A DNA stretch of 64,000 nt from Escherichia phage EcSzw_1, in the sequence record MH791413.1, one strand, 5' to 3'. Numbering within the stretch: the stretch's first letter is position 1; the number at the start of each line of letters is the position of its first letter. Below the pieces are notes generated by a model. It saw nothing but the letters and a program-made list of their open reading frames with translations. It had not been told where the DNA came from and ran no database searches. A program made the position numbers and the translations under genes. This document shows positions 56,418 through 57,417 of this stretch, in pieces.

Positions 56418-56792
56418 ATGAAGGCAAAGAGTAGAAAAGACTTTTACTGCTTCCTACAATCCTATGTACAAACAATTGAAGAAGGTGAGAGATATAATCT
56501 TGAAGATGTTCTCCCAACACCTTTGACGTGGCGTACTAGTAAATGGCCTGAAACGGATATCCAACCAACCACTGCAACCTTCAAATACACTCCTAAAATT
56601 GACCTACCAGATTCTGAAGAATTACTATACCCAATGTTTCACATTGTTGGTCTTGGTACTTTCCTTATGGATATTCAGTATGTGATTGGTAAAGGGTATA
56701 AAGTTGAAGGTGTAGTTCTTGGTGATGTTTCTCCGCAACACAAAGGCTACTTCAGATTAAATGCAAGATTAGAGGCTAATAAAAATGATTAA
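56418..56792 (+). CDS. Hypothetical protein (shares N-terminal domain with next gene)
   Basis: 124 aa; conserved W-P-E-D-I and MDIQY segments shared with 56785..57417. Confidence 0.5.
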   Translation: MKAKSRKDFYCFLQSYVQTIEEGERYNLEDVLPTPLTWRTSKWPETDIQPTTATFKYTPKIDLPDSEELLYPMFHIVGLGTFLMDIQYVIGKGYKVEGVVLGDVSPQHKGYFRLNARLEANKND

Positions 56793-57417
56793 GGCAAAAA
56801 CATATCCAGACTTCAAAGAGTTCGTTAAAGGTTTTATTGCGAACGTTAAGGCTGGAAAAAGATATGACTTCAGAACATATCAGGAAGCTATTCTCCCACT
56901 GACTTACAGTTCACCTTGGCCTGAAGCAGATATTGCAGAGGTGACCAACTTCACTTACGAGCCAGCCTATACAGTGCCATTCAGTCCAGAACTTCTTTAC
57001 AGCGTTGGTGCTCAAATGAGAACTGCTGATTTCTTCATGGATTTGCAGTATGCAATCATCAACGGTAAAGATGTTGACACGGTTTACTGTGAATGGCTTG
57101 CAAGAGTTAAACCTTTCTCAATGCTTAACGCAAAACTGAAAGATTCTGTAGTTCCTCCAGTGATTACTACACAGCCAAATAACCAGACCGTTAATGAGGG
57201 TGGAACGTTAACTCTGAGTATTGTTGCAACTGGTGCTACAGGCTATCAGTGGAAGAAAGGTGCTGACAACATCTCTGGAGCAACTTCAGCAACTTACACA
57301 AAAGAGAATGCAACAACTGCTGACGATGCCGGAACGTACACTTGTGTAGTTACTGGTGCAGGTGGTTCCGTTACTTCTAACGCAGCTACTGTTGTGGTTA
57401 ACGAAGTAGGAGGTTAA
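56785..57417 (+). CDS. Hypothetical protein with C-terminal Ig-like domain
   Basis: C-terminal TQPNNQTVNEGGTLTLSIVATGATGYQWKK...DAGTYTCVVTGAGGS resembles an I-set Ig fold. Confidence 0.55.
   Translation: MIKAKTYPDFKEFVKGFIANVKAGKRYDFRTYQEAILPLTYSSPWPEADIAEVTNFTYEPAYTVPFSPELLYSVGAQMRTADFFMDLQYAIINGKDVDTVYCEWLARVKPFSMLNAKLKDSVVPPVITTQPNNQTVNEGGTLTLSIVATGATGYQWKKGADNISGATSATYTKENATTADDAGTYTCVVTGAGGSVTSNAATVVVNEVGG

What the first reader, a model, noticed from the sequence alone, without database searches (positions are those of the whole stretch)
56418..57417. Paralogous gene pair upstream of the endolysin, one with an Ig-like domain
56418..56792 and 56785..57417 share an N-terminal domain of about 120 aa (conserved W-P-E-D-I, F-Y-P, MDLQY segments). 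The second adds a C-terminal domain resembling an I-set immunoglobulin fold. Ig-like domains in phages usually decorate virions; finding one in a lysis-proximal gene with a shorter paralog is unusual.
Basis: partly seen in the sequence, partly recalled or inferred. Interest (0 to 1): 0.4.

Follow-up and report, generated by a model that had tools for sequence, protein, structure and literature searches.

The report
Capsid decoration gene and short paralog
The longer gene is the already-solved Hoc-like protein that decorates the capsid of Felix O1-type phages, not a lysis gene. The shorter gene upstream is an unstudied Ig-less copy of its capsid-binding domain that lacks a key capsid-anchoring arginine.

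Summary
ORF A (56418..56792, 124 aa) and ORF B (56785..57417, 210 aa) are paralogs over about 120 aa (37% identity, E = 4e-18). ORF B ends in one I-set/Ig_3 domain, supported by Pfam scores above threshold and an AF2 model with pLDDT 90.

The window is Escherichia phage EcSzw-2 (Ounavirinae, Suspvirus). ORF B is the ortholog, about 90% identical, of Bas63 Hex-Dec (PDB 9ncf_S) and Sf14 gp20 (9c2d_S). Cryo-EM showed these as monomeric Hoc-like decorations at the centres of the 60 pentamer-proximal hexamers of the T=9 capsid. The family is known to be encoded outside the structural module, beside the endolysin, and is widely mislabelled "tail protein". So the Ig domain does decorate the virion, and there is no lysis cassette here.

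The residual novelty is ORF A, a capsid-binding-domain-only paralog that neither structural paper mentions.
- It is translationally coupled to ORF B.
- It is transcribed late with ORF B in Felix O1.
- It is under purifying selection (dN/dS 0.13).
- It was not listed in virion proteomes, and the cryo-EM papers report no density at the remaining hexamer centres.
- Arg79, which anchors the capsid-binding domain, is an invariant Gly in it.
- It has decayed in a clade of 19 viable phages.

Its role is unknown. An off-virion accessory role in capsid decoration is my inference. Overall this is a mostly explained, modest finding.

The parts
56380..56393 (+). Intrinsic-terminator-like hairpin (GGGGCGAAAGCCCC followed by TTTTT) ending the upstream gene. 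It corresponds to Felix O1 terminator t38 and marks the 5' boundary of the A-B-endolysin block.
   Evidence: Consensus scan. Felix O1 Table 2 lists t38 upstream of ORF37.
56418..56792 (+). ORF A (EcSzw2_117, 124 aa, 14.4 kDa). Capsid-binding-domain (CapBD)-only paralog of Hex-Dec with no Ig domain; PHROG 4463, 'unknown function'. It has an AAGGA Shine-Dalgarno 8 nt upstream.
   Evidence: The AF2 model (pLDDT 66, pTM 0.68) matches only 9c2d_S and 9ncf_S in the PDB (TM 0.66-0.68). dN/dS is 0.13.
56649..56651 (+). Gly78 codon (GGT) of ORF A, the position aligned with the capsid-anchoring Arg79 of Hex-Dec. It is an invariant Gly in all 23 unique short paralogs and in the divergent P0097.
   Evidence: The role of Arg79 comes from the Sf14 paper.
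56785..56792 (+). 8-nt overlap of the ORF A stop (TAA) with the ORF B start (ATG). An AGAGG Shine-Dalgarno for B lies inside the 3' end of A, which suggests translational coupling.
   Evidence: A 4-nt ATGA overlap is found in all Felixounavirus and Mooglevirus loci.
56785..57417 (+). ORF B (EcSzw2_118, 210 aa, 22.7 kDa). Hex-Dec, a Hoc-like hexamer-centre capsid decoration protein; PHROG 3995, mis-annotated as 'putative tail protein'.
   Evidence: phmmer against the PDB gives 9ncf_S E = 4.8e-196 and 9c2d_S E = 1.6e-161.
56785..57150 (+). Capsid-binding domain (CapBD) of ORF B, aa 1-122. It contains Arg79 (57019-57021) and Arg107 (57103-57105), the residues reported to salt-bridge to MCP Asp221 in Sf14.
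   Evidence: About 89-91% identical to the solved CapBDs, target TM 0.89, rmsd 2.4 A. Both Arg residues are invariant in 25 unique orthologs.
57154..57399 (+). Single I-set/Ig_3 immunoglobulin-like display domain of ORF B (aa 124-205). Relatives carry 1-4 tandem copies, and this phage lacks exactly one 84-aa repeat relative to SUSP2.
57420..57884 (+). Endolysin (Phage_lysozyme, PF00959), the conserved downstream neighbour. It has a strong TAGGAGG Shine-Dalgarno inside the 3' end of ORF B.
57892..57913 (+). Intrinsic-terminator-like hairpin after the endolysin (equivalent to Felix O1 t35), the 3' boundary of the three-gene block.
40077..41189 (-). Major capsid protein gene, the binding partner of Hex-Dec. 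It is about 95% identical to the solved Bas63 and Sf14 MCPs, and the Asp of 'KIRDAYL' (Sf14 D221) is conserved. It lies about 15 kb from the Hex-Dec gene, on the opposite strand.

Best explanation
ORF B is the Ounavirinae 'Hex-Dec' capsid decoration protein. Its N-terminal 120-aa capsid-binding domain plugs as a monomer into the centre of the 60 pentamer-proximal hexamers of the T=9 capsid. It is anchored by Arg79 and Arg107 salt bridges to Asp221 of the major capsid protein, and it projects a single I-set Ig-like domain outward. This probably mediates weak adhesion to surfaces or particle aggregation, as proposed for T4 Hoc. The binding is shown for orthologs and inferred for this phage; the adhesion role is inferred. 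ORF A is a tandem paralog consisting only of the capsid-binding domain. It is made late together with ORF B, from an overlapping and probably translationally coupled reading frame, and it is kept by purifying selection. It has replaced the anchoring Arg79 with an invariant Gly and does not appear among the listed virion components. My inference, held at low confidence (about 0.3), is that ORF A acts off the mature virion as an accessory factor for capsid decoration. It could transiently occupy or mask hexamer centres, or modulate Hex-Dec loading. It is beneficial but dispensable. Adjacency to the endolysin is conserved synteny, not a functional lysis link.
For: Identity of ORF B. It matches the solved chains 9ncf_S and 9c2d_S (E = 5e-196 and 2e-161, about 90% identity over the CapBD). 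The AF2 model superposes at target TM 0.89. Felix O1 gp36 was found in virions by MS at 44% coverage. Arg79 and Arg107 are invariant in 25 orthologs. The MCP is about 95% identical to the solved MCPs and keeps the partner Asp.

ORF A.
- Paralogy: E = 4e-18.
- It hits only the CapBD part of the solved chains, and its fold matches only those chains in the PDB.
- The A-B-endolysin trio with stop/start overlap is present in 26 of 26 fully extracted loci and in a divergent metagenomic phage.
- Felix O1 ORF36 and ORF37 both peak at 60 min with structural genes, while ORF35 and ORF38 peak at 25 min.
- dN/dS is 0.13, against 0.043 for the B CapBD.
- The A and B clades are each monophyletic with 100% bootstrap.
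- Arg79 is an invariant Gly and Arg107 is variable.
- gp37 is absent from the Felix O1 virion list and from the Sf14 structural/MS table.
- Both cryo-EM papers report no density at the 20 true-3-fold hexamers.
- A clade of 19 phages carries a decayed remnant, so ORF A is dispensable.
Against: No experiment has been done on EcSzw-2 itself. The absence of ORF A from virions rests on thresholded or curated lists (Felix O1 required at least 25% coverage, and the Sf14 table lists selected gene products), so a low-copy virion component is not excluded. The AF2 model of ORF A is only moderately confident (pLDDT 66). Basic residues conserved in both paralogs (K3, K5 and K109, plus a nearly conserved R26) might still support capsid binding. 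No direct evidence exists for any A-B or A-MCP interaction. The proposed accessory role is therefore a guess compatible with the data, not derived from them. The adhesion role of the Ig domain is also only proposed in the literature.
Confidence: 0.8

Rival explanations
1. ORF A is itself a virion decoration protein. It would be an Ig-less cap that binds the hexamer centres Hex-Dec does not use (the 20 true-3-fold, facet-centre hexamers), or it would bind sub-stoichiometrically or labilely and so be missed.
For: It has the same fold as the CapBD. It is expressed late with, and translationally coupled to, a capsid protein. Hex-Dec leaves exactly one class of hexamers empty, and the Sf14 authors attribute this to shifted Asp221 geometry. 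A paralog with a remodelled interface (27 positions fixed differently) could fit that class. A monomer on a 3-fold axis would be blurred by icosahedral averaging.
Against: Both cryo-EM studies report no density on those hexamers, and Sf14 also had asymmetric reconstructions. It is not in the Felix O1 virion MS list or the Sf14 table. The anchoring Arg79 is an invariant Gly.
Confidence: 0.15
2. ORF A is a functionless, decaying duplicate left over from a tandem duplication of the Hex-Dec gene.
For: It evolves about three times faster than the B CapBD. It has lost a key contact residue. It is pseudogenised in a clade of 19 viable phages and absent from Erwinia Ounavirinae.
Against: dN/dS of 0.13 over 366 pairs indicates clear purifying selection. 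An intact ORF of constant length (122-124 aa) with a preserved Shine-Dalgarno and stop/start overlap is found in about 230 phage records. It also occurs in a lineage only 45% identical. Twenty-seven positions are fixed differently from B, including a family-specific VGLG motif.
Confidence: 0.05
3. The pair has a lysis-related function, such as regulating or targeting the adjacent endolysin. This is what 'lysis-proximal' would suggest.
For: Adjacency to the endolysin is invariant across Ounavirinae, including the Erwinia phages. The three genes are bracketed by terminator-like hairpins.
Against: ORF B is structurally proven on capsids. In Felix O1 the endolysin peaks at 25 min and ORF36/37 at 60 min. 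Inspection of the sequences shows no transmembrane or signal-like segment in A or B. The putative holin is about 33 kb away.
Confidence: 0.02

Closest known systems
Bas63 Hex-Dec (bas63_0124; PDB 9ncf chain S) and Sf14 gp20 (PDB 9c2d/9c3a chain S): hexamer-centre decoration proteins of Ounavirinae
   Same: ORF B is their ortholog. The N-terminal CapBD is about 89-91% identical, Arg79 and Arg107 are kept, and the MCP partner with Asp221 is conserved. It has the same I-set Ig repeats and the same genomic position directly upstream of the endolysin.
   Different: ORF B has one Ig domain, against four in Bas63 and three in Sf14. It lacks exactly one 84-aa repeat relative to its closest relatives SUSP1 and SUSP2. 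One-Ig forms are common elsewhere.
[quoted passage not shown]
   Same: It works the same way: a dispensable monomer at hexamer centres with a small globular capsid-binding domain and a string of Ig-like domains pointing outward. PHROG 'Hoc-like head decoration' profiles hit the Ig part, and the literature makes the same comparison.
   Different: The domain order is reversed (CapBD N-terminal here, C-terminal in Hoc). The Bas63 authors describe the CapBD as larger, topologically distinct, pseudo-C2 symmetric and without sequence similarity. The PHROG Hoc-like profile hits cover only residues of about 119-206. It occupies only 60 of the 80 hexamers.
PHROG 4463 / Felix O1 ORF37 / bas63_0125 (uncharacterised short proteins)
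   Same: ORF A is a full-length member (E = 4.5e-75) and sits at the same position upstream of Hex-Dec.
   Different: Nothing about the family is characterised. Its paralogy to the Hex-Dec CapBD is not mentioned in the Bas63, Sf14 or Felix O1 papers.
Distant CapBD family members (Erwinia Kolesnikvirus 'tail protein', and metagenomic P0099-P0103)
   Same: They share the CapBD (E = 7e-10 to 5e-5 against the profile), followed by a C-terminal display module. In Erwinia phage Harbringer the gene also sits next to the endolysin.
   Different: The display module is Big_2 or Big-like, or a K/S-rich low-complexity tail, instead of I-set Ig. In Harbringer there is a single copy with no short paralog.

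Membership tests
Ounavirinae Hex-Dec / Sf14 gp20 decoration protein (ORF B) | N-terminal capsid-binding domain of about 120 aa, homologous to the solved chains | tested here: met
   phmmer E = 4.8e-196 (9ncf_S) and 1.6e-161 (9c2d_S). The AF2 model superposes at target TM 0.89, rmsd 2.4 A, 89-91% identity.
Ounavirinae Hex-Dec / Sf14 gp20 decoration protein (ORF B) | One to four C-terminal tandem Ig-like (I-set type) domains | tested here: met
   One domain at aa 124-205. Ig_3, Ig_2 and I-set all score above their gathering thresholds. The fold matches C2/I-set Ig domains.
Ounavirinae Hex-Dec / Sf14 gp20 decoration protein (ORF B) | Capsid-anchoring Arg79 and Arg107, with the MCP Asp221 partner | tested here: met
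   Both Arg residues are present in ORF B and invariant in 25 orthologs. The window MCP keeps Asp in KIRDAYL. The contacts are as reported for Sf14.
Ounavirinae Hex-Dec / Sf14 gp20 decoration protein (ORF B) | Encoded outside the structural module, immediately upstream of the endolysin | tested here: met
Ounavirinae Hex-Dec / Sf14 gp20 decoration protein (ORF B) | Physically bound as a monomer at the centres of pentamer-proximal hexamers of this phage's own virion | not testable with these tools
   Shown only for Bas63 and Sf14 (cryo-EM) and for Felix O1 (virion MS).
T4 Hoc family (ORF B) | Homologous capsid-binding domain placed C-terminal to the Ig-like domains | tested here: not met
   PHROG Hoc-like profiles align only to the Ig part, residues of about 119-206. 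The CapBD is N-terminal, and the Bas63 authors report it as topologically distinct. ORF B is a functional analogue, not a member.
Phage tail protein (the database annotation of ORF B) | Located in the tail of the virion | tested here: not met
   The solved orthologs are capsid chains in icosahedral capsid reconstructions. The Bas63 paper states explicitly that the 'tail protein' annotation is wrong.
Capsid decoration protein (ORF A) | CapBD fold | tested here: met
   E = 4e-18 against ORF B. E = 6e-15 and 4e-11 against the solved CapBDs. Foldseek TM 0.66-0.68, probability 1.0, from a moderate-confidence model.
Capsid decoration protein (ORF A) | Conserved capsid-anchoring arginines | tested here: not met
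   Arg79 is Gly in 23 of 23 unique sequences and in P0097. Arg107 is Q/H/N/K, or R in P0097.
Capsid decoration protein (ORF A) | Presence in purified virions or in cryo-EM density | tested here: inconclusive
   Literature only. It is absent from the Felix O1 list (coverage of at least 25%) and the Sf14 table, and both cryo-EM papers report the unoccupied hexamers as empty. None of these was a targeted search for this protein.
PHROG 4463 (ORF A) | Full-length profile match | tested here: met
   E = 4.5e-75 over residues 1-122 of a 123-position profile.

The most novel reading that the evidence does not exclude
The short CapBD-only paralog is a dedicated, previously unrecognised regulator of capsid decoration. 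It would be a late protein that recognises hexamer centres (or the Hex-Dec CapBD itself) without staying on the virion. By doing so it would set which hexamers receive Hex-Dec, explaining the unexplained 60-of-80 occupancy pattern, or when they are loaded.
Probability: 0.2. Interest if true: 0.5.

Novelty: new member of a known kind. Interest (0 to 1): 0.25.

Why it matters
In practice, this corrects a widespread mis-annotation: 'tail protein' should read hexamer-centre capsid decoration protein. It also shows that the EcSzw-2 version is a minimal one-Ig form, which could serve as a compact phage-display scaffold with a known capsid anchor. Conceptually, the only open point is the conserved Ig-less paralog. 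If it controls where or when Hex-Dec binds, it would be a rare case of a decoration protein with its own accessory factor, and a handle on why only one class of hexamers is decorated. If it does not, it is one more small late phage gene of unknown role.

Tried and rejected
1. **Frameshift fusion of A to B.** Felixounavirus junctions contain AAAAAG just before the overlap. However, B is in the -1 frame there and in the +1 frame in Suspvirus (including the window), and Mooglevirus lacks the heptamer. No slippery site or frame relation is conserved, so I rejected this in favour of simple stop/start coupling.
2. **Lysis function.** Rejected; see the rival explanations.
3. **'Tail protein'.** Rejected, because the solved orthologs are capsid chains.
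4. **Membership in T4 Hoc.** Rejected; ORF B is an analogue only.
5. **Searches for wider homologs.**
   - The word-indexed searches returned only close relatives.
   - The exhaustive profile search found just 12 representative clusters.
   - NCBIfam gave nothing.
   - Pfam gave nothing for ORF A or for the CapBD part of ORF B.
6. **Timing of the duplication relative to the Erwinia-phage lineage.** Unresolved: bootstrap support is 10% for A+B and 46% for B+Erwinia.
7. **Gene-level fitness of bas63_0125.** The PhageMaP main text mentions only gp124, and no supplements are held.
8. **Other virion proteomes.** The VpaE1 protein list is in a figure that is not held. The wV8 paper has no relevant data. 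The Sf14 supplement does not mention the neighbouring gene.
9. **Window end.** The 628-nt tail of the window is not the start of record MH791400.1.

Full report
**What is there.** The window is identical to Escherichia phage EcSzw-2 (MH791400.1, Ounavirinae, genus Suspvirus), record positions 23381-86752, plus 628 further bases. At the flagged coordinates there are two + strand ORFs. ORF A (56418..56792, 124 aa) is annotated 'hypothetical protein' (EcSzw2_117). ORF B (56785..57417, 210 aa) is annotated 'putative tail protein' (EcSzw2_118). An endolysin follows 2 nt later (57420..57884, Phage_lysozyme, E = 2.6e-39). The stop of A overlaps the start of B by 8 nt. Shine-Dalgarno sequences for B and for the endolysin lie inside the preceding coding regions. 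Terminator-like hairpins at 56380 and 57892 bracket the three genes.

A and B align over about 120 aa at 37% identity, E = 4e-18. Across 23 unique A and 25 unique B sequences from related phages, 30 columns are invariant and identical, including KAK, DF, PLT, WPE-DI, LLY, F-M-QY and LNA-L. B carries one Ig domain at residues 124-205, above the Pfam gathering scores for Ig_3, Ig_2 and I-set. An AF2 model of B is confident (pLDDT 90.1), and its C-terminal half matches C2/I-set Ig domains.

**What ORF B is.**
- A sequence search of the PDB finds two near-identical solved chains. They are 9ncf chain S (Bas63 'Immunoglobulin-like domain protein', E = 4.8e-196) and 9c2d/9c3a chain S (Sf14 'tail protein', E = 1.6e-161). 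The AF2 model superposes on their modelled N-terminal domains at target TM 0.89 and rmsd 2.4 A.
- The two cryo-EM papers (PMC12609058, PMC11821841) describe this protein as Hex-Dec or gp20. [quoted passage not shown] None sits on the true-3-fold hexamers. One to four flexible Ig-like domains extend outward, and the authors see it as functionally analogous to T4 Hoc.
- In Sf14 the CapBD is anchored by Arg79 and Arg107 salt bridges to Asp221 of the major capsid protein. ORF B keeps both arginines, which are invariant in 25 orthologs. The EcSzw-2 capsid protein (window 40077..41189, minus strand) is about 95% identical to both solved capsid proteins and keeps the Asp.
- The Felix O1 ortholog (gp36) was detected in purified virions at 44% coverage.
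- The 'tail protein' label traces at least as far back as the 2010 Felix O1 annotation, and the Bas63 authors say explicitly that it is wrong.

**Why it sits next to the endolysin.** This is conserved synteny throughout Ounavirinae: Felix O1, Bas63, 26 extracted loci, a divergent metagenomic phage and Erwinia phage Harbringer.
- It is not a lysis cassette. The putative holin is about 33 kb away.
- In Felix O1 the endolysin (ORF35) peaks at 25 min. ORF36 and ORF37 peak at 60 min, together with portal, sheath and fibre genes.
- The structural module lies on the other strand at about window 23984-46881.
- The out-of-module location was already noted in 2010 and 2025.

**Variation in ORF B.** Orthologs are 210, 294, 377 or 460 aa long, which corresponds to 1-4 Ig repeats. 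EcSzw-2 lacks exactly one 84-aa repeat compared with SUSP2. In distant relatives the CapBD is a platform for other display modules: Big_2, Big-like or a low-complexity tail. The whole CapBD family is very small, with 12 representative clusters among 1.84 billion proteins.

**What ORF A is.** It belongs to PHROG 4463 ('unknown function', E = 4.5e-75). It matches only the CapBD portion of the solved chains (E = 6e-15 and 4e-11). A moderate-confidence AF2 model (pLDDT 66, pTM 0.68) hits only those two chains in the PDB (TM 0.66-0.68, probability 1.0). It is therefore a CapBD-only paralog.

Several observations show it is a real gene:
- It is intact, 122-124 aa long and in the same overlapped arrangement in every extracted locus.
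- It is present in about 230 of 252 matching phage records.
- It occurs in a lineage where it is only 45% identical, while the partner CapBD there is 59% identical.
- It is under purifying selection: median dN/dS is 0.13 over 366 pairs, against 0.043 for the B CapBD and 0.12 for the Ig domain.
- The A and B clades are each monophyletic with 100% bootstrap. Whether the duplication predates the single-copy Erwinia-phage lineage is unresolved.

Other observations argue against it being an ordinary decoration protein:
- The position of Arg79 is an invariant Gly within a family-specific VGLG motif, and the position of Arg107 is variable.
- Twenty-seven positions are fixed differently from B.
- The Felix O1 homolog gp37 is not in the virion MS list, although it is transcribed late.
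- It is absent from the Sf14 structural/MS table.
- Both cryo-EM papers report no density at the remaining hexamer centres.

It is also dispensable. Nineteen phages from E. coli, Salmonella and Shigella share one decayed remnant, with the start codon lost, frameshifting indels and about 230 nt deleted. This indicates a single loss in a clade that then persisted. Neither structural paper uses the word 'paralog' or mentions this gene. The PhageMaP text discusses only gp124, which is dispensable on most hosts and more important on S17-1.

**Mechanism, with status.**
- Shown for orthologs and inferred for this phage: ORF B binds hexamer centres through its CapBD and displays an Ig domain.
- Proposed in the literature but untested: the Ig domain mediates weak adhesion or aggregation, as suggested for Hoc.
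- Shown here: ORF A shares the CapBD fold, is constrained, is co-located and overlapped with B, lacks Arg79 and is dispensable.
- My inference, at about 0.3 confidence: ORF A acts off the mature virion as an accessory to decoration, by transiently masking hexamer centres or modulating Hex-Dec loading.

**Verdict.** The finding is real but largely explained by recent structural work. ORF B is a one-Ig ortholog of a solved, Hoc-like capsid decoration protein, not an oddly placed lysis-associated Ig protein. The conserved Ig-less paralog is a small open question that, as far as I could find, has not been reported. Interest is modest at 0.25.

Noticed in passing
window 53300-54713 (- strand): The Ro60/TROVE-vWFA-like 'RNA-binding protein' gene (Felix O1 ORF42, 471 aa) is split by a frameshift in this genome. 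Residues 1-36 are in one frame (annotated as the 41-aa EcSzw2_112) and residues 34-471 in another (EcSzw2_111, with a TTG start). The record is flagged UNVERIFIED, so this may be a sequencing error rather than biology.
   Followed up: partly
window 49525-53128 (- strand): A cluster of 16 tRNA genes, including two tRNA-Met, two Lys and two Leu. It lies between the structural/packaging module and the vWFA gene and is not annotated in the GenBank record.
   Followed up: partly
window 57154-57399, compared with L004 (SUSP2): The EcSzw-2 Hex-Dec lacks exactly one 84-aa Ig repeat relative to its 94%-identical relatives SUSP1 and SUSP2. The junction is ...EGGTLT|LSIVATGATGYQW, consistent with in-frame recombination between tandem repeats. 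Across the subfamily, lengths fall into classes of 210, 294, 377 and 460 aa.
   Followed up: yes
L031 2307-2497 (phage mio); L032 (fKMPT1); 19 records: A clade of Felixounavirus phages on E. coli, Salmonella and Shigella carries the same decayed remnant of the short paralog, while Hex-Dec and its junction stay intact. These are natural knockouts, useful for testing the paralog's function.
   Followed up: yes
window ~23336-23710 (- strand) and 57420-57884 (+ strand): The putative holin and the endolysin are about 33 kb apart on opposite strands, so there is no holin-endolysin cassette. The Felix O1 genome paper noted the same.
   Followed up: partly
window 63373-64000: The last 628 bases of the window extend beyond the end of the linear record MH791400.1 and do not match the record's first 628 bases. 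The window must therefore come from a longer or differently bounded assembly of the same phage.
   Followed up: partly
P0103 (metagenomic, 153 aa); P0099/P0100 (204-206 aa): Distant CapBD homologs carry non-Ig display modules: a Lys/Ser-rich low-complexity tail in P0103 and Big_2 domains in P0099 and P0100. The CapBD thus appears to be a modular capsid anchor.
   Followed up: partly
Bas63 baseplate (literature): The Bas63 paper reports one unassigned C3 density at the tip of the baseplate PA domain, and 23 virion gene products of which 22 were modelled. I did not test whether the short paralog could be the unassigned component.
   Followed up: no
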